This document shows, one piece after another, positions 1 through 6,456 of a stretch of 25,739 bases of DNA. The translations under genes and the position numbers were made by a program. Source of the DNA: a virus (taxonomy: Duplodnaviria > Heunggongvirae > Uroviricota > Caudoviricetes); the IMG/VR virus record IMGVR_UViG_2675903417_000004; one strand, given 5' to 3'. The notes beneath the pieces are model-generated. The model did not search any database. It saw only the letters and a program-made list of their open reading frames with translations, and had not been told where the DNA came from. Within the stretch, counting starts at the first letter, position 1; every line of letters begins with the position of its first letter.

Positions 1-64
1 AGTACCAGCGTACGGCCCACAGAATGATGTCACGCTGAAAATGCCGGCCTTTGAATGGGTTCAT
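1..64 (-). CDS. tnpA: IS26 transposase, N-terminal fragment (continues beyond window start)
   Basis: rc of 1-64 encodes MNPFKGRHFQRDIILWAVRWY..., the known N-terminus of Tnp26. Confidence 0.85.
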   Translation of the reverse strand, partial: MNPFKGRHFQRDIILWAVRWY

Positions 65-127
65 GTGCAGCTCCATCAGCAAAAGGGGATGATAAGTTTA
101 TCACCACCGACTATTTGCAACAGTGCC
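1..127 (-). mobile_element. IS26 (IS6 family), partial copy at window edge; terminal inverted repeat at 114-127, transposase reading leftward out of window
   Basis: Sequence 114-127 TTTGCAACAGTGCC is the reverse complement of the IS26 terminal IR GGCACTGTTGCAAA; positions 1-113 match the IS26 left end including the tnpA start (rc ATG at 62-64). Recognised from memory of IS26, not searched. Confidence 0.9.
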
Positions 128-414
128 AACTGAAGAATATCGCCTTCGATAGTCTCCACGCACTGGACCTGGATTTCCCCAGAGTTTCGAATTGGACCGT
201 GCTGGTTGAACTTCACACCATTCGGACCATAGTCCTCCACATCCTCGCGGGTCATTTCAGGAATTTGCGACGTGCGAACCAGTACGCTGATATCTTCATG
301 GCCTGCAAAAGTGAGCTGGAATTCAGAAGATACCAGTCGTTCGCCTTTGGCCGCGTTGGCAGTATAGCGGCCCTTAATAAATTTACGGTTTCCCTTAGTG
401 TTATTGTGCCCCAT
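128..414 (-). pseudogene. phage hypothetical protein gene, 3' end replaced by IS26 (the track ORF 76..414 takes its last 17 codons from IS26)
   Basis: ORF starts at ATG 414 with an AAGGA Shine-Dalgarno; the reading frame runs straight into the IS26 IR at 127. Confidence 0.5.
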
Positions 415-425
415 ATAAAATCCTT

Positions 426-1007
426 TTACTGGAACGCCCGAACAATATCGGAGCTGTTATATATCGAAGAACCGGTCAACTGGAGGTTGACGGTGTTTTT
501 CAGGAAATGTCCATTGCTGTCCCTGGGCGCATCGAGATCGAAACTTATGTCCTGGATAGCGACATCAATGATGTTGATCCGGCGACCAATGTTTAGCGTC
601 ACACGCTCCGGGATTCGACCACCAATACTGGCATCTTTAAGTTCCGGGCTAATCATCGCTGACAATGCGGCGATAGCTCCTGAAACCTCCGTGAATGGGT
701 CAAACAAAGCGATGAAAGTTACTGGCAGCGTGAAAGTCGGCGGTGTTCCCCCTTCCCAAACCATTAAGCTGTTCCAACGGGCAACCGACGTTGTTTCAGT
801 ACCAACCTGCGCAAAACCACTGAAGGCACCAGCAACAGATCCCATGGACATACCGGTAAACGGCGCTTCCCAATTCTGGGCCATGTTCATTGCCGCTCCC
901 TGGCTGATATATCCGGTAACCTGGTACTGAGAGTTCGTTAAAGTAACTTTCAGATATGGCGATACACCGTCAGCCTGGCTGTAAACCCCATAAGGAATAG
1001 GTGCCAT
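426..1007 (-). CDS. phage structural protein, possibly the tail tube protein (193 aa)
   Basis: Lies downstream of the putative sheath gene in the same operon; size fits the roughly 21 kDa P1 tube protein. Assignment rests on size and position only. Confidence 0.4.
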   Translation of the reverse strand: MAPIPYGVYSQADGVSPYLKVTLTNSQYQVTGYISQGAAMNMAQNWEAPFTGMSMGSVAGAFSGFAQVGTETTSVARWNSLMVWEGGTPPTFTLPVTFIALFDPFTEVSGAIAALSAMISPELKDASIGGRIPERVTLNIGRRINIIDVAIQDISFDLDAPRDSNGHFLKNTVNLQLTGSSIYNSSDIVRAFQ

Positions 1008-1042
1008 TCAAGTTAAAGGCCGGAGTTCTCCGGCCTCCTCCT

Positions 1043-1858
1043 TTAGCCAAGGCGCTTACGGCGCAGTTTCATTGACTTTTTGCGGGCAAGTTTTGCCGCG
1101 CCGGTCTGGGCTTTTCGACGCGCTTTTTTCAGCGCCGATTTTTGAGCCGCAGTCAGACGTTTTTTACGCAGGCGTTTACGGATGAGTTTGATCTCACCGT
1201 TACGAACAACCTTCTTAAATGCTTCAGTCAGCATTTCATCAGAAGTGCCAGCAACAACAAACGCCGCTTCCAGTTCGTCGCGGTCGTCGCTATCTAAACC
1301 AGCGATAGAGGCACCAACATCAGCAGCTGCGTCGTCGTCTTCATCGTCAGCCAGTGCTTCGATCAGGTCATCATCTACACCGCATGCTGCGAGGAAGTCA
1401 GCAACATTTGCCCATGCTTCGTTATAGGCATCGTCCTGTTCTTCTGTAACTTCGGAGTCGTCGTCATCAGAGATACCAGCGATAGCCTGAACGAAACCAT
1501 CAAGGGAGTCGAAAGTCAGATCACCGCTATCAGCCCAGGCGAAAACGGCGTCGGCCGCATCACTCAACGCATTTTGCATAGCACTTCGATTTGCAGCTTC
1601 CAGAATCATCTGGTGCGCCTGTTCGACGGTCCATTCTTTACCGTCTTTCCCTTCCAGGATTTGCTCAGGAGCCTGGGCAGATGGAACGTTATCGTTAGTC
1701 TGTGCCGCCGGTTCCGGATTATTATTAATAATCGGATCTGTTGGCGGTTCAGCGCTTGCTCGGGCAGACTCCATCAGCTGCACAGGATCAGAGTTCAAAG
1801 CGAAACGAGACAGTCCATTCCCCAAAAATGCCCCGGATTGAAAAAAGTTTTTGCTCAT
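1043..1858 (-). CDS. highly acidic protein with a polybasic Lys/Arg-rich C-terminal tail (271 aa), function unknown
   Basis: ATG at 1858 preceded by AAGGGA; D/E-rich body; last ~50 aa KLIRKRLRKKRLTAAQKSALKKARRKAQTGAAKLARKKSMKLRRKRLG. Confidence 0.55.
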   Translation of the reverse strand: MSKNFFQSGAFLGNGLSRFALNSDPVQLMESARASAEPPTDPIINNNPEPAAQTNDNVPSAQAPEQILEGKDGKEWTVEQAHQMILEAANRSAMQNALSDAADAVFAWADSGDLTFDSLDGFVQAIAGISDDDDSEVTEEQDDAYNEAWANVADFLAACGVDDDLIEALADDEDDDAAADVGASIAGLDSDDRDELEAAFVVAGTSDEMLTEAFKKVVRNGEIKLIRKRLRKKRLTAAQKSALKKARRKAQTGAAKLARKKSMKLRRKRLG

Positions 1859-1867
1859 TGTATTCCC

Positions 1868-3457
1868 TTACTTAATAAGCAGCGGTACGCCCTGGATACG
1901 ACGGGCTACGCCAGTCGGGCAGCAGGCCCAGACTACTTCCCATTTATCGAATTCCGCCTGCGTAACTTTCAGCACATACGGTTCTGTACCGTCAGCATCA
2001 GGATCACGAGGAGCCACCAGAGCGCCGGAGGCGACAAAGCGATCTAAAAGTTTGGTCATCCCTTTAGTCAGGCCAGCCGCAGTAATACCGTCCGGGCTAT
2101 GCTTCATCTGTCGGGCTAACTGGACAAAGAAACGGCTGATTGCATTCATCAGGGATGGGACGTGCTGGAAGTGCAGATAGTTATCCTGCGTGCAGCAAGT
2201 TAAAGCATCGTCGATGATCATCTGGCCAGAGGTGCCAACAGATACTTTATTGAGACGGCCCTTGACCATTGCTTCTTCGTCCGGGGTATCTTCCGGATAC
2301 AGCGGTTGAATTGACGCACGAGCAATGACGGCACGTTCTTCACCAGCCGGTGAGTAATGCCAACCGCCGACATCAGAGTTTTTCTTGACGCCACGAGCTT
2401 TCGCCGCATACGCCACGCCAGACAGACCAAAGACCACACGGGATTGGGTCCATTTGTCTTTGCAGGAGAACGGGTAGTGATAGACAGCACAGCTTACATA
2501 ATCGGTACCAAGTAAACCGGTATCTTCAACAGCAGAGATCGCTTCCGTGTACGTCAATGTCGGTTTGACATCAAAGAAGCCATCAATCAGGCGATCTGCA
2601 CAGATTTTACCTAATGCGGTGATAGCCGCATTGTCATAGCAGCCCAGGCCAAGAACAGCGGTGTACATGTACGGCGCATTATTCAGCACTTTAACCGCAC
2701 GCAGGTACGCAGCGGTTGAGATTTTCGACTGATCGCCGTTGGTACCGCCAGTGAACGCCAACGATTTTTTGTTTGTTACTTTCGCTGTCGAAATCAGCTC
2801 TTCATTAACAACCGCGCGCAGATATTTAGAACGGGCTTCCAGAGCCGTAGGCAGATAACACAAGCGGCCCATGTCATCTTTCGCTTCTTCCGCCAAAGAC
2901 ACAGTGTGTGTCTCCAGGGTCGTTACCACGCCGAGCGAAGTCGTCTGGGTCAGTTTTAAGAGGAAGCGTTCATTACCCGCGCTGTCCGCTGTTGCCGTTT
3001 CGATGGTTAACTCACGGGTAGGTGAAATACACGGATCACCATCATCAACGTAGATAGCAAAGGCTTCGCCACTATCAAGTTCAATTTCAGAACCGTATGG
3101 CAACGCACTGTAAGCCGGTTCGCCTGATTCATCGAACATAATAATCGGGAACTTCGCATCATCCGGAACAGCGCGAACAACATAACCAGACGTTTGCTGA
3201 ATAGCTTCGTATACATGGCGAATTGGTTCGAACTGTGAGCCGGAAGACGGCTTCAGCGGTTCGCCGAGAACATCTTCGTAATTGGACTCAGTAACCGCAA
3301 GAACAGTAAACGGCTTGCCACGCGCAAATACGCCAATACCAGCCCATAAGCTGCTATTTAATGCAACACCGGTAGATAACGTCGCATCGGCATTGATCGG
3401 GCTAACCGCGACGCCGGATGCATTACCTAATGACTGTTGAATTGAATATTGAGACAT
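1868..3457 (-). CDS. putative contractile-tail sheath protein (529 aa)
   Basis: Large structural ORF with AGGGAA Shine-Dalgarno, in an operon with the tube candidate; weak resemblance to myovirus sheath proteins. Not verified. Confidence 0.4.
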   Translation of the reverse strand: MSQYSIQQSLGNASGVAVSPINADATLSTGVALNSSLWAGIGVFARGKPFTVLAVTESNYEDVLGEPLKPSSGSQFEPIRHVYEAIQQTSGYVVRAVPDDAKFPIIMFDESGEPAYSALPYGSEIELDSGEAFAIYVDDGDPCISPTRELTIETATADSAGNERFLLKLTQTTSLGVVTTLETHTVSLAEEAKDDMGRLCYLPTALEARSKYLRAVVNEELISTAKVTNKKSLAFTGGTNGDQSKISTAAYLRAVKVLNNAPYMYTAVLGLGCYDNAAITALGKICADRLIDGFFDVKPTLTYTEAISAVEDTGLLGTDYVSCAVYHYPFSCKDKWTQSRVVFGLSGVAYAAKARGVKKNSDVGGWHYSPAGEERAVIARASIQPLYPEDTPDEEAMVKGRLNKVSVGTSGQMIIDDALTCCTQDNYLHFQHVPSLMNAISRFFVQLARQMKHSPDGITAAGLTKGMTKLLDRFVASGALVAPRDPDADGTEPYVLKVTQAEFDKWEVVWACCPTGVARRIQGVPLLIK

Positions 3458-3517
3458 AACTTTCCCTGTTATGCGCCCCGCACGGGGGCGCTATGTTAAA
3501 CGGAGAACTTCCCCTGA

Positions 3518-5245
3518 TTACTCAGAGTCACCGGCATCAATCGTGTCGCCGCTAATGAAGTTAAGCCCGCCTTTTTTGGCCATTGTCAGCGTTACACGAG
3601 TGAAGTAATCAGCGCCGTTGCGTGGGTGCATATCGTTGATAGCCGAACCCCACAGCGTGGTACGGTTGACCAGCGCCGGAGTGGTCGGATGCTGGAACGG
3701 GATGGCCGGGACAGCATCACCAGTCACGAAGCCTGCTTTACCCGGATTTTCATCACGGACGTAGCACAGCACATCCATCGAGCTGAACTGAATGTTCTCT
3801 GTCGTTAAGTTCTTACAAATACCAGCAGGTACTTCGTACACTTTCACGTTACCGAACAGGGTACCGATGTAGTGAACATACGGAGTCTGGATATAGTCTT
3901 CGGCTGGCTGGAAGAAATCCTTCGGCAACTGTTTGAAGAAAGATGCTGCATCAGCACCAGCAAACATCCCCATCGCACCAGAAGATTTAACGCGCTCAAT
4001 AATGTCGCGATATACAGTCTGGAATTTGCCACGAATGATGGTTGCCCATACATCAAAGGACTGGTTAACCGGCAGAGCGATGTCAAAGGTGTCGGTCGCA
4101 AGAGTACGCCAGATCATGATGCGAAGACGCAGCATATCCTGTTCATGAGACAGGTATTCCTTCAGGGTGCGGAACTGTAGGGAACCCAGGTCCAGACCAA
4201 ATTCACGCTGTGCTTCATACGCCGCCTGTACCGTGTGCTCAGCCGCGATAACGAACTGGCTTGGGAACAGGGTGTATTTCTTCATTTCGTGGTTGATCAG
4301 CGGGATCAGCTCAGGAGCGGCTTCAATATTGATTTCCGTCTCAATTGCGATCTCAGTGCCTTTATCCGGCGCTTTGGAGAACGACAGGGCAATCTGACCA
4401 ATGTTGTAGTTCAGAGAGCAGGTAACAGTGATTTGCTCACCAGCAGCATTAGTAAACGAGTGAAGTAGGCTGCCGGAACCGTTATCAACAACAGACTTAA
4501 TACGGTTAACGTAGATATTAGTGCGACCTTTTCGGATTGGTACATTCTGGCCTTCGAAGTCTTCCATCTTGAAGGTTGCGGTTTTGCTGGTGCCATCGGA
4601 GCTTGCCACCAGCACATAGCGGCGGCGTAACTGGCTGTACACACCGACGGATTGCATGTCCAGAACATCACCAGCAGCATAAGAACCAAAAGAGGAACCT
4701 GCCACGTTAAAGACTTCATAGATGTCGGACTGGTCACGCGTAACCGGAATGAAGGTACACGCATCAGCGGTAGCTGCCCCCAACTGAACAGGCAGGATCA
4801 TCGCGAGGAATAAAGGCAGACGCATAACACCGTCAGAAACGCTCATCATCTCTGCTGCGACGGATTCCAGCATCGCTTTATTAGTGGCATCCATGCTATT
4901 GCGGGTGGACTCAATCAGGCAGTTTTCCAGCGTCTGGTGGCAGGAGGCCAGAATTTCCGGACGCGGCATAGATTTATGTGCTGCGGCGTAGTCAGCCAGT
5001 GCACTTGCCCACGCTGTAGCGATTTGAGCGGTGGCATTATCAGAGATACCCGCAAAAACCGGGTCTTTACGTGCAGCTTCAAGGATAGATGCGGCACGCG
5101 CGGCATCATCTTTAATGAATTGGTTATCAGTACCGAACTGCGCAGTGCTTGCCCAGCCAAGCACAGCTTTAGAGCGTTTTGCGATATCTGCAATACGATT
5201 CTGGTATTCGCGTAAGTTACTCAATTTACTCTTCCTTAAACACAA
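3518..5245 (-). CDS. putative major head protein precursor (575 aa by longest ORF; TTG start at 5245, alternative TTG at 5224 with a better Shine-Dalgarno)
   Basis: About 63 kDa ORF immediately downstream of parS, as recalled for P1 gene 23 (62 kDa precursor); no ATG near the 5' end, so the start is uncertain. Confidence 0.4.
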   Translation of the reverse strand: MCLRKSKLSNLREYQNRIADIAKRSKAVLGWASTAQFGTDNQFIKDDAARAASILEAARKDPVFAGISDNATAQIATAWASALADYAAAHKSMPRPEILASCHQTLENCLIESTRNSMDATNKAMLESVAAEMMSVSDGVMRLPLFLAMILPVQLGAATADACTFIPVTRDQSDIYEVFNVAGSSFGSYAAGDVLDMQSVGVYSQLRRRYVLVASSDGTSKTATFKMEDFEGQNVPIRKGRTNIYVNRIKSVVDNGSGSLLHSFTNAAGEQITVTCSLNYNIGQIALSFSKAPDKGTEIAIETEINIEAAPELIPLINHEMKKYTLFPSQFVIAAEHTVQAAYEAQREFGLDLGSLQFRTLKEYLSHEQDMLRLRIMIWRTLATDTFDIALPVNQSFDVWATIIRGKFQTVYRDIIERVKSSGAMGMFAGADAASFFKQLPKDFFQPAEDYIQTPYVHYIGTLFGNVKVYEVPAGICKNLTTENIQFSSMDVLCYVRDENPGKAGFVTGDAVPAIPFQHPTTPALVNRTTLWGSAINDMHPRNGADYFTRVTLTMAKKGGLNFISGDTIDAGDSE

Positions 5246-5275
5246 GGCACTTGTGTGAATCCCTTTTCGGAAGAG

Positions 5276-5302
5276 ATTTTATTGAAAGTCACTTGTTGAC
5301 TT
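5276..5302 (-). promoter_or_regulatory. candidate P1-type late promoter for the head/tail operon: -10 TAAAAT (rc of 5276-5281) with an AAGTGACTT element 4 nt upstream
   Basis: Same arrangement (9-mer containing TGACT, 4 nt, TAAAAT, about 30 nt to the start codon) recurs at 24899-24917 upstream of the baseplate cluster. Confidence 0.35.
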
Positions 5303-5395
5303 TCTCGCTAAAAGTAATTTTTTAAATTTTTTGTGCGGGGGAGGGGGGCAAGTAAAACAGGCGTGAAATCGTGGGAATTTCAGTCTGAAATTTTC
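5295..5395 (-). promoter_or_regulatory. parS: parS-like partition site downstream of parB
   Basis: Heptamers of ATTTCAC/ATTTCAA type (GTGAAAT 5362-5368, AATTTCA 5376-5382, TGAAATT 5386-5392) and hexamers TCGCTA (5305-5310) and TCGTGG (5369-5374) flanking an AT-rich centre; resembles P1 parS boxA/boxB layout with variant boxB. Confidence 0.5.
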
Positions 5396-5490
5396 CATGA
5401 ATATCTATATATATCATATATTTATACATGAAATAGGCGCGGGACATTTTAGACAGGGGAGGGGGCTAAAGCCGCCTCCCACCAGCGGGA

Positions 5491-6456
5491 TTATTCCCCA
5501 GCAGACATTTTCCCAATGATTTTTTTTATTGCTTCGTCAATTTCAGTTTGCACTTCAGACGGGAGTCTGGAGAACTCGTAGGCGACAACCCGTTTTTTCG
5601 GATCGGACTTCTTTCGGGCATATTGGCGACGGTCAGAGAAGTCTCGCAGCTTCTCAACCACCACAGATTTAACCGGCGCGGGCTTCAGGCTTTTGCTTTC
5701 CGCTTTGAAGATAGCCAGTATCTTCGCTTTATCCTCTTTCGCGCCCTCAGTCTCTGCAATTCGTTCGCGCACCGTATCAACCAGCTCTTCAATCGGCACG
5801 CTTTTAGCGTTAGCATCCTCGGCGATCTGGAGCAGTAACTGGTAATCTGGAAGGGCGAGATCGCTGGCTACGGGGAAGACAGCAATCATCTCATCCGGCA
5901 CCGCGGCAGCCTGGAAAGCTCGCGTCACTTTTGCCTTTGAGATGTTCTCAGCTCGGGCGATCTCTTCTTTGGTCATATTCTTACCGTACATAACCTCGAA
6001 GCGTTTACCCAGCTCGCGCAGAGTGTGTTCGCGGGCTGTCTGGATATCAATGGCCAGCTGGCGGGCATCCGCCAGGCTGATCTCATCTTTCGTCACCAGA
6101 ATCTCAAATTTCGTTTCATTGAAGATACACGCAGCGCGGCGACGCGATCCGTCCAATACCTCAATGCGCTCCCCAACCATACGACCGATAGCCGGGAAGA
6201 ACTGTTGCAATTTAATGGTGCGGGAAATATCGCTTACCGACTCAGGGGTGAGCAGAGACTGATCGCGGCCGTTAACTGCCGGGTCAACGAACGTGCGCGA
6301 CTCAATCTCACCACTCAGCACGACGGTAAGCAAGAATTTAGCCTGGCGGCCAGATTTTAGGGTAAAGGTTTTGGTGCCTTCACTGCCTTCAAGCATGCGA
6401 GCAAACTCGGAGCTATTCTTGCCCAGCACTCGTCCACGGGAAACTATTTTTTTCAT
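5491..6456 (-). CDS. parB: ParB partition protein (P1 family, 321 aa)
   Basis: Motifs GRDQ..LTP, ILDGSRRRA, AKVTRA and YEF..RL shared with P1 ParB; start overlaps the parA stop (ATGA). Confidence 0.9.
   Translation of the reverse strand: MKKIVSRGRVLGKNSSEFARMLEGSEGTKTFTLKSGRQAKFLLTVVLSGEIESRTFVDPAVNGRDQSLLTPESVSDISRTIKLQQFFPAIGRMVGERIEVLDGSRRRAACIFNETKFEILVTKDEISLADARQLAIDIQTAREHTLRELGKRFEVMYGKNMTKEEIARAENISKAKVTRAFQAAAVPDEMIAVFPVASDLALPDYQLLLQIAEDANAKSVPIEELVDTVRERIAETEGAKEDKAKILAIFKAESKSLKPAPVKSVVVEKLRDFSDRRQYARKKSDPKKRVVAYEFSRLPSEVQTEIDEAIKKIIGKMSAGE

What the first reader, a model, noticed from the sequence alone, without database searches (positions are those of the whole stretch)
5276..5302. 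Shared late-promoter-like motif upstream of both structural operons
Upstream of the head/tail operon (rc of 5276-5302: AAGTGACTT-TCAA-TAAAAT) and upstream of the baseplate operon (rc of 24899-24917: AAATGACTA-GCAG-TAAAAT) the same arrangement occurs, each about 30 nt before the first start codon. It is consistent with P1 late promoters, which have a -10 box plus a conserved upstream element instead of a -35 box, and would tie both clusters to Lpa-type control. The element near 5286-5302 overlaps the parS-like region, so partition and late transcription signals may be interleaved.
Basis: partly seen in the sequence, partly recalled or inferred. Interest (0 to 1): 0.5.

Follow-up and report, generated by a model that had tools for sequence, protein, structure and literature searches.

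The report
Two known P1 late promoters
The two matching motifs are real and are the already-annotated phage P1 late promoters LP23 and LP26, which switch on head/tail and baseplate/tail genes when the phage activator Lpa is made, so the finding is correct but ordinary, and its claimed overlap with the plasmid centromere parS is wrong.

Summary
Observation confirmed. On the minus strand, 5294..5276 reads AAGTGACTT-TCAA-TAAAAT and 24917..24899 reads AAATGACTA-GCAG-TAAAAT.

The window is a P1/P7-family phage-plasmid segment. The two sites map base for base onto "predicted late promoter LP23" and "late promoter LP26" in the P1 GenBank record AF234172, each with a -10 hexamer and a "-22 region".

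A degenerate late-promoter pattern hits the window exactly twice, at these sites, against 0.00 expected. A weight matrix built only from seven other P1 late promoters ranks them first and second (26.1 and 22.4 bits; null maximum 10.6 ± 2.9).

Both motifs persist upstream of the homologous genes in Cronobacter phage JK004 while the flanks have diverged. The boxes are essentially invariant in about 80 IMG/VR contigs.

Interpretation supported: Lpa-type late promoters, with a -10 plus a 9-bp inverted repeat and no -35.

Two details are wrong. parS lies at 5363-5445, 68 nt from the LP23 box. The gene 23 start is TTG at 5224, 51 nt from the -10, not about 30.

lpa is not in the window, and no transcription data were available.

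Extras: a third, unannotated late-promoter-like motif inside gene 7 (23194-23215), and IS26 ends bounding the window.

Already known; low interest.

The parts
5276..5297 (-). Late promoter LP23: AAC + -22 box AAGTGACTT (5294..5286) + spacer TCAA + -10 TAAAAT (5281..5276)
   Evidence: Coordinate transfer from P1 AF234172 58825-58843 and P7 AF503408 61543-61561, 'predicted late promoter LP23'. Leave-out PWM top hit, 26.1 bits. 21/22 positions identical in JK004 against 49% in the flanks. 79/80 IMG/VR contigs identical.
128..5224 (-). Operon served by LP23: gene 23 (major capsid, 3518-5224, TTG start), 22 (sheath, 1868-3457), 21 (1043-1858), pmgG (426-1007), and bplB truncated by IS26 at 128
   Evidence: ORFs; gene names by homology to the P1 annotation. 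Intergenic gaps are at most 60 nt. IS26 end shown.
24899..24920 (-). Late promoter LP26: AAC + -22 box AAATGACTA (24917..24909) + spacer GCAG + -10 TAAAAT (24904..24899)
   Evidence: Coordinate transfer from P1 AF234172 78485-78503, 'late promoter LP26'. Leave-out PWM second hit, 22.4 bits. The box and the TA...T of the -10 are invariant in 79/79 contigs while the spacer varies. In JK004 the box and -10 are kept and the spacer has diverged.
20118..24869 (-). Operon served by LP26: genes 26 (24492-24869), 25, 7, 24, 6, 5 (baseplate and tail)
   Evidence: ORFs; P1 annotation. Gaps run from -14 to 9 nt.
24909..24927 (+). LPpmgL, a divergent late promoter annotated in P1 that reuses the same 9-bp box on the other strand (TAGTCATTT-GTTG-AAAATT)
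   Evidence: P1 annotation 78495-78513. Its -10 hexamer is weak here (AAAATT) and varies among relatives, including at position 2. It scores low with the PWM.
5363..5445 (-). parS centromere (P7 type: box A/B repeats and an IHF site). It is context, not part of the promoter.
   Evidence: Annotation transfer from P7/P1. ATTTCA heptamer cores at 5364-5369, 5377-5382, 5386-5391 and 5429-5434.
24942..24958 (-). C1 repressor operator O26 (ATTGCACTAATAATTTT), upstream of LP26 (context)
   Evidence: P1 annotation 78528-78544; sequence read.
23194..23215 (-). Third late-promoter-like motif AACAAGTGACTGGTGATAACCT inside gene 7 (codons 16-23). It is not annotated in P1.
   Evidence: PWM 21.3-21.4 bits, third in the window and tenth in the whole P1 genome, directly after the nine annotated 4-nt-spaced late promoters. 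It has decayed in JK004.

Best explanation
The two sites are the phage P1 late promoters LP23 and LP26. Each has a sigma-70-type -10 hexamer (TANNNT) and no -35 element. In its place, 4 nt upstream of the -10, sits a 9-bp inverted repeat (consensus AAGTGACTT, usually preceded by A/G-A-C) centred near -22.

By established P1 biology, the phage protein Lpa (gp10) binds this repeat. Lpa is made early from a C1-repressed promoter. Together with the host RNA-polymerase-associated protein SspA, it lets sigma-70 holoenzyme initiate at these sites.

LP23 would then drive the 23-22-21-pmgG-bplB cluster (capsid, sheath, tail/baseplate). LP26 would drive 26-25-7-24-6-5 (baseplate/tail).

Shown here: the sequence identity of the sites with the annotated promoters, their statistical distinctness, their position in front of tightly packed late operons, the lack of a -35, and their conservation in diverged relatives that also encode Lpa.

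Inferred, not shown: Lpa binding, SspA dependence and the transcription start points in this element.
For: Exact coordinate correspondence with LP23 and LP26 in P1 and P7 records.

All eleven annotated P1 late promoters share the box-N4-TANNNT layout, apart from LPhot with a 9-nt spacer. LP23 carries the perfect consensus box.

The degenerate pattern gives 2 hits against 0.00 expected. A PWM built without these sites ranks them 1st and 2nd in the window, and 5th and 7th in the whole P1 genome.

No -35/-10 sigma-70 pair is found on the minus strand at either site.

Phylogenetic footprint in Cronobacter phage JK004, whose proteins are 78-86% identical: 21/22 and 15/22 motif positions are kept against 49% and 42% in the flanks. 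At LP26 the differences fall in the spacer and in the N positions of the -10.

The boxes are invariant in 79/79 (LP26) and 79/80 (LP23) IMG/VR contigs.

Lpa homologues are present in P1, P7, JK004 (67%) and D6 (31%), and Lpa has its own Pfam family PF25716.

[quoted passage not shown] Lpa is described there as a DNA-binding activator acting through SspA (PMC1891329).
Against: LP23 is labelled only 'predicted' in the P1 record, and I could not read a paper that maps its start site.

lpa is not in the window. The window is bounded by IS26 ends that interrupt bplB and pmgM, so the source element may be defective and the promoters unused there.

Near-identity among P1-family sequences makes most of the conservation evidence weak. 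Only JK004 is informative.

In D6 no such motif precedes the capsid gene, and the motif near gene 26 points the other way. In Salmonella plasmid pCVMN1543 (85% gp26) no good motif precedes gene 26.
Confidence: 0.88

Rival explanations
1. The motifs are intact in sequence but functionally idle relics. The window is a P1 fragment bracketed by IS26, and the host replicon may lack lpa or be a defective phage-plasmid, so nothing activates these promoters.
For: IS26 terminal repeats at 114-127 and 25613-25626 interrupt bplB and pmgM. bplB scored essential in the P1 CRISPRi knockdown screen, where polar effects can confound the readout (PMC10695390). There is no lpa in the window.
Against: Each IS26 piece is exactly 127 nt, which looks like a short-read assembly break at a repeat rather than evidence that the rest of P1 is missing. 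Both promoters and all operon ORFs between the IS ends are intact. This reading concerns current use, not what the elements are.
Confidence: 0.15
2. They are ordinary constitutive or C1-controlled sigma-70 promoters. The upstream box is incidental or acts as a poor -35 substitute.
For: The P1 record also lists a 'predicted sigma 70 promoter P1 23' that overlaps LP23, and sigma-70 promoters and a C1 operator lie near LP26.
Against: The consensus scan finds no -35/-10 pair on the minus strand at either site, and no TG extended -10 is present. The box is conserved as a specific 9-mer across eleven promoters and in JK004, while the bases where a -35 would lie are not.
Confidence: 0.04
3. The element upstream of gene 23 is part of, or interleaved with, the parS partition site and binds ParB.
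For: A TTTCA pentamer at 5283-5287 resembles the core of the ATTTCA box-A heptamer. parS is close, 68 nt away. ParB is known to spread from P1 parS and silence flanking genes (Rodionov et al. 1999, cited in PMC7053999), so indirect influence is conceivable.
Against: All annotated ParB boxes and the IHF site lie at 5363-5445. No full ATTTCA occurs within 5250-5362. P1-, P7- and third-type par cassettes differ upstream of about 5307, while LP23 stays constant.
Confidence: 0.02
4. Chance resemblance between two AT-rich intergenic stretches.
For: None beyond the AT-richness of the regions.
Against: 0 of 100 shuffles gave even one match to the pattern. Only 1 of 500 simulated windows reached a PWM score of 20, whereas these sites score 26.1 and 22.4.
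Confidence: 0.005

Closest known systems
Bacteriophage P1 late promoters LP23 and LP26 (GenBank AF234172, annotation accompanying the 2004 P1 genome paper)
   Same: Same genomic positions, same strand and same downstream genes. LP23 is identical in all 22 positions. The LP26 box is identical.
   Different: LP26 differs from P1 at two positions: spacer GCGG to GCAG, and -10 TAGAAT to TAAAAT. This is a rare allele, seen in 1 of 79 IMG/VR contigs. The neighbouring par cassette is P7 type rather than P1 type.
Experimentally studied P1 late promoters Ps (LPs, tail-fibre operon) and LPdar (from my own knowledge of the work of Guidolin, Lehnherr and Arber; papers not held in the library)
   Same: Same architecture: a 9-bp inverted repeat AAGTNACTT, a 4-nt spacer, TANNNT, and no -35.
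   Different: The central base of the box is T in LPs and LPdar and G here. Direct transcript mapping and mutational data exist for Ps but, as far as I could verify, not for LP23.
Activator-dependent phage late promoters that lack a -35 element (P2/P4 Ogr/Delta-dependent and Mu C-dependent late promoters; from my own knowledge)
   Same: Host sigma-70 polymerase is redirected by a small phage DNA-binding activator. The activator binds an inverted repeat upstream of a -10 box.
   Different: In those systems the activator site lies further upstream (about -55 for P2, and -30 to -55 for Mu C), and the activators are unrelated. P1 uses a site at -22 and needs the host co-factor SspA (PMC1891329).

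Membership tests
P1-type (Lpa-dependent) late promoter | -10 hexamer of the form TANNNT | tested here: met
   TAAAAT at 5281..5276 and at 24904..24899.
P1-type (Lpa-dependent) late promoter | 9-bp inverted repeat (consensus AAGTGACTT / AAGTNACTT) centred near -22 | tested here: met
   LP23 has AAGTGACTT, matching 9/9 and a perfect 4+1+4 palindrome. LP26 has AAATGACTA, matching 7/9 and identical to the LPsit box.
P1-type (Lpa-dependent) late promoter | Fixed 4-nt spacing between the box and the -10 hexamer | tested here: met
   TCAA and GCAG spacers. Ten of the eleven annotated P1 late promoters have 4 nt.
P1-type (Lpa-dependent) late promoter | No functional -35 hexamer | tested here: met
   The sigma-70 consensus scan finds no -35/-10 pair on the minus strand in 5150-5550 or 24800-25100.
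P1-type (Lpa-dependent) late promoter | Located in front of a late (morphogenesis, lysis or packaging) transcription unit | tested here: met
   The sites lie upstream of 23-22-21-pmgG-bplB and of 26-25-7-24-6-5. The genes are tightly packed.
P1-type (Lpa-dependent) late promoter | Orthology to a promoter listed among the eleven P1 late promoters | tested here: met
   Base-for-base correspondence to LP23 and LP26 of AF234172 and to LP23 of AF503408.
P1-type (Lpa-dependent) late promoter | Transcription starts about 7 nt downstream of the -10, only late and only with Lpa (and host SspA) | not testable with these tools
   No transcript data are available. Dependence is taken from the literature (PMC10695390, PMC1891329, PMC8198154).
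P1-type (Lpa-dependent) late promoter | Cognate activator gene lpa in the same genome | tested here: inconclusive
   There is no lpa in the window: tblastn gives only a spurious hit at E=0.37. In P1, lpa lies about 11 kb beyond the window's right end. The closest record over the LP23 region, OP279344 (100% identical over 4900-5700), encodes a 100%-identical Lpa, but the window is bounded by IS26 and is not collinear with that record.
parS centromere of P1/P7 (ParB box A/B plus IHF site) | Box A heptamers (ATTTCAN), box B hexamers and an IHF site within the roughly 83-bp site | tested here: not met
   All of these lie at 5363-5445. The promoter interval 5276-5297 holds none, only a TTTCA pentamer.

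The most novel reading that the evidence does not exclude
The third motif, AACAAGTGACTGGTGATAACCT at 23194-23215 inside the first 70 nt of gene 7, may be a functional twelfth Lpa-responsive site. It is present but unannotated in P1 at 76780-76801.

As an internal late promoter it would boost the distal genes 24, 6 and 5. That could explain part of a published puzzle: CRISPRi roadblocks in genes 26 and 25 are not polar on the genes downstream (PMC10695390).
Probability: 0.2. Interest if true: 0.35.

Novelty: already known. Interest (0 to 1): 0.1.

Why it matters
It matters little as a discovery. These promoters have been in the P1 GenBank record since the genome paper, and the Lpa/SspA mechanism is textbook P1 biology.

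The check is still useful for annotation in three ways:
- It shows that this P1/P7-type phage-plasmid segment retains intact late-transcription signals for its capsid/sheath and baseplate/tail operons.
- It corrects the idea that the late promoter is interleaved with parS.
- It fixes the gene 23 start at 5224.

The by-product, a strong unannotated late-promoter-like site inside gene 7, gives a cheap and testable hypothesis for an unexplained CRISPRi result in P1.

Tried and rejected
- **Primary papers.** I tried to read the 2004 P1 genome paper (PMC523184) and Lehnherr 1991 (PMC208978). Neither is held, so the consensus was rebuilt from the GenBank annotation.
- **IMG/VR relatives.** Relatives of gp26, gp23 and gp7 were fetched to look for diversity. 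All are 98-100% identical, so they give only allele frequencies, not deep conservation.
- **Distant gp26 homologues in plasmids.** In Citrobacter, Klebsiella, Vibrio and Spartinivicinus, gene 26 directly follows a mat homologue and no motif is present. This says nothing about LP26.
- **Salmonella pCVMN1543 (85% gp26).** It lacks a good motif upstream of gene 26. The best match scores 11 bits and lies about 140 nt upstream.
- **Phage D6.** No motif precedes the capsid gene, and the motif near gene 26 is on the opposite strand.
- **Gene 7 internal site as a promoter for a shorter gp7.** Rejected: there is no in-frame start with a ribosome-binding site downstream.
- **One-mismatch pattern hits** at 5214-5232(+), 11815-11833(+) and 24943-24961(+). 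Treated as chance: 1.2 are expected, and they score low with the PWM.
- **parS overlap.** Rejected.
- **OP279344 as the source genome.** It matches 100% over the LP23 region but is not collinear with the window, since the coordinate offsets differ by 860 nt, and it is 99.0% identical at the LP26 region. The source was therefore not identified.

Full report
**What the window is.** The region around the first site is 100% identical to a record named Escherichia phage P1 (OP279344), 98% to P7, and 95.6% to the reference P1 up to the point where the par cassette changes type. The region around the second site is 99% identical to P1 and its relatives. The window therefore covers the P1-family interval from bplB to pmgM, roughly P1 coordinates 53.7-79.2 kb, with a P7-type parB/parS.

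**Check of the observation.**
- On the minus strand, 5294..5276 reads AAGTGACTT TCAA TAAAAT, preceded by AAC.
- On the minus strand, 24917..24899 reads AAATGACTA GCAG TAAAAT, also preceded by AAC.
The first interval (5276-5302) simply includes eight further upstream bases.

**Identity with known features.** I transferred coordinates from the annotated P1 record AF234172.
- Window 5276-5294 is 'predicted late promoter LP23', with the -10 at 5276-5281 and the '-22 region' at 5286-5294. P7 AF503408 carries the same annotation.
- Window 24899-24917 is 'late promoter LP26', with the -10 at 24899-24904 and the -22 region at 24909-24917.
- The same 9-mer is annotated on the other strand as the -22 region of the divergent LPpmgL.
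- The full P1 record lists eleven late promoters: LPmat, LPpro, LPlyz, LPdar, LPs, LPsit, LP23, LP26, LPpmgL, LPhot and LPpac. [quoted passage not shown]
- Extracting all eleven gives the consensus (A/G)AC-AAGTGACTT-N4-TANNNT. LP23 carries the perfect palindromic box, and LP26 has the same box as LPsit.

**Beyond chance.**
- The degenerate pattern AARTKAYTW-N4-TANNNT matches the window exactly twice, at these sites. Expected 0.00; none of 100 dinucleotide shuffles had a hit.
- To avoid circularity I built a 22-position weight matrix from seven P1 late promoters that are not in the window. The window's top scores are LP23 (26.1 bits), LP26 (22.4), a third site at 23194-23215 (21.4), and then 10.3.
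- In 500 first-order Markov simulations of the window the maximum score was 10.6 ± 2.9. Only one simulation reached 20.
- In the whole P1 genome the same matrix puts the nine annotated 4-nt-spaced late promoters in ranks 1-9.

**Promoter anatomy and context.**
- No sigma-70 -35/-10 pair is detected on the minus strand at either site.
- Downstream of LP23 lie gene 23 (major capsid), 22 (sheath), 21, pmgG and bplB, with gaps of at most 60 nt.
- Downstream of LP26 lie 26, 25, 7, 24, 6 and 5, with gaps from -14 to +9 nt. Terminator-like hairpins in both stretches are at chance level.
- The distance from the -10 to the start codon is 29 nt for gene 26.
- For gene 23 the annotated start is the TTG at 5224, preceded by AAGGAAG, 51 nt from the -10. 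The earlier TTG at 5245 has no ribosome-binding site and is CTG in JK004. The 51-nt spacing is constant in 80/80 related contigs.

**Comparative evidence.** Most relatives are too similar to be informative, but they do show where variation is tolerated.
- In 79 IMG/VR contigs the LP26 box and the T, A and final T of the -10 never change. The spacer (GCGG, GCAG, GCGA, TCGG), the third base of the -10 (G, T, A) and the upstream flank do vary. The window's GCAG-TAAAAT allele occurs once.
- LP23 is identical in 79/80 contigs. The one variant has AAGTGATTT, the LPlyz form.
- The informative relative is Cronobacter phage JK004, with gp23 78% and gp26 86% identical. Its motifs are AACAAGTGACTTTCAATAATAT, 51 nt before the gene 23 homologue, and AACAAGTGACTCAGCATACAAT, 28 nt before the gene 26 homologue.
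- In alignments with JK004, 21/22 and 15/22 motif positions are identical against 49% and 42% of the other columns. At LP26 the differences fall in the spacer and in the N positions of the -10. JK004 encodes a 67%-identical Lpa.
- Phage D6 (about 40% identity; Lpa 31%) has a high-scoring motif next to its gene 26 homologue, but on the opposite strand. It has none before its capsid gene.
- In still more distant plasmids, gene 26 follows a mat homologue without an intergenic gap.
- The motif-gene pairing is therefore conserved within the P1/P7/JK004 group, not across the whole wider family.

[quoted passage not shown] P1 Lpa matches its own Pfam family, PF25716. Applying this to the two sites is inference from orthology. 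lpa is not in the window, and I had no transcript data.

**The parS claim.**
- By annotation transfer, parS occupies window 5363-5445: box A4 at 5363-5369, box B2 at 5372-5377, box A3 at 5377-5383, box A2 at 5385-5391, IHF at 5412-5424, box A1 at 5428-5434 and box B1 at 5440-5445.
- All four exact ATTTCA cores in 5200-5500 lie within parS. The promoter holds only a TTTCA pentamer. The gap between the -22 box and box A4 is 68 nt.
- Among related contigs, three par-cassette types differ from about 13 nt upstream of the box outward, while LP23 stays constant. The signals are adjacent, not interleaved.
- ParB spreading from P1 parS is known to silence flanking genes (Rodionov et al. 1999, cited in PMC7053999). 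An indirect effect on LP23 in lysogens is therefore conceivable but untested.
- In the P1 record, what does overlap parS is a merely predicted sigma-70 promoter ('P2 23'), not the late promoter.

**Things noticed on the way.**
- *Third motif.* AACAAGTGACTGGTGATAACCT at 23194-23215 lies in codons 16-23 of gene 7. It is present in P1 at 76780-76801 without annotation. Its score is far above the null, but its box ends in G, unlike all annotated promoters. In JK004 a synonymous ACT-to-ACC change and other changes reduce it to 5.3 bits. No in-frame start with a ribosome-binding site follows it, and variation in 80 close relatives is uninformative.
- *A possible link to published data.* PMC10695390 reports that CRISPRi roadblocks in genes 26 and 25 are unexpectedly not polar on 7, 24, 6 and 5. 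An internal late promoter here could account for 24-6-5 but not for gene 7. The authors' own simplest explanation is ineffective roadblocks.
- *IS26 ends.* The window's first and last 127 nt are IS26 termini, with inverted repeats at 114-127 and 25613-25626. They interrupt bplB and pmgM. The equal 127-nt lengths suggest an assembly break at a repeat.
- *LPpmgL.* Its -10 hexamer (AAAATT here) is weak and variable among relatives.

**Verdict.** The parS-overlap idea and the 30-nt spacing for gene 23 are wrong. Interest is low.

Noticed in passing
window 23194-23215 (-): A third strong late-promoter-like motif (AACAAGTGACTGGTGATAACCT, 21.4 bits; null maximum 10.6 ± 2.9) lies inside gene 7, codons 16-23. 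It is present but unannotated in P1 (76780-76801) and has decayed in Cronobacter phage JK004. It might relate to the reported lack of CRISPRi polarity of gene 25/26 roadblocks on downstream genes (PMC10695390).
   Followed up: partly
window 1-127 and 25613-25739: Both ends of the window are IS26 termini, with the inverted repeat GGCACTGTTGCAAA at 114-127(-) and 25613-25626(+). Each piece is exactly 127 nt. They interrupt bplB on the left and pmgM (a VRR-NUC protein) on the right. The equal lengths suggest a short-read contig broken at a repeat. The element may be a resistance-associated or defective P1-like phage-plasmid.
   Followed up: partly
window 24909-24927 (+): The divergent late promoter LPpmgL annotated in P1 shares the LP26 box. 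Its -10 hexamer is AAAATT here (AATATT in P1), and in 79 IMG/VR contigs it varies even at position 2. The LP26 -10 on the other strand keeps its key bases. This suggests LPpmgL is under weak constraint, if any.
   Followed up: partly
window 24899-24908 (-): The window's LP26 allele (spacer GCAG, -10 TAAAAT) differs from P1 (GCGG, TAGAAT) and is rare, at 1 of 79 related viral contigs. The identical TAAAAT at both promoters is therefore strain-specific.
   Followed up: yes
window 5298-5362 and 5363-5700: The par cassette is P7 type: parB is 321 aa and the region is 98% identical to P7, whereas identity to P1 ends at about 5394. Related contigs show at least three cassette types whose divergence begins about 13 nt upstream of the LP23 box. 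This marks a recombination boundary right next to the promoter.
   Followed up: partly
window 24942-24958 (-): The C1 repressor operator O26 (ATTGCACTAATAATTTT) lies between LP26 and pmgL. The 26/pmgL intergenic region therefore combines C1 repression with Lpa activation, as annotated in P1.
   Followed up: no
L008 1059-1080 (-) (phage D6, MF356679): D6, whose Lpa is only 31% identical to that of P1, carries a near-consensus P1-type late-promoter motif (GACAAGTGACTTTCATTAATCT). It sits next to its gene 26 homologue but points away from it. The box sequence seems to be conserved over a large evolutionary distance.
   Followed up: no
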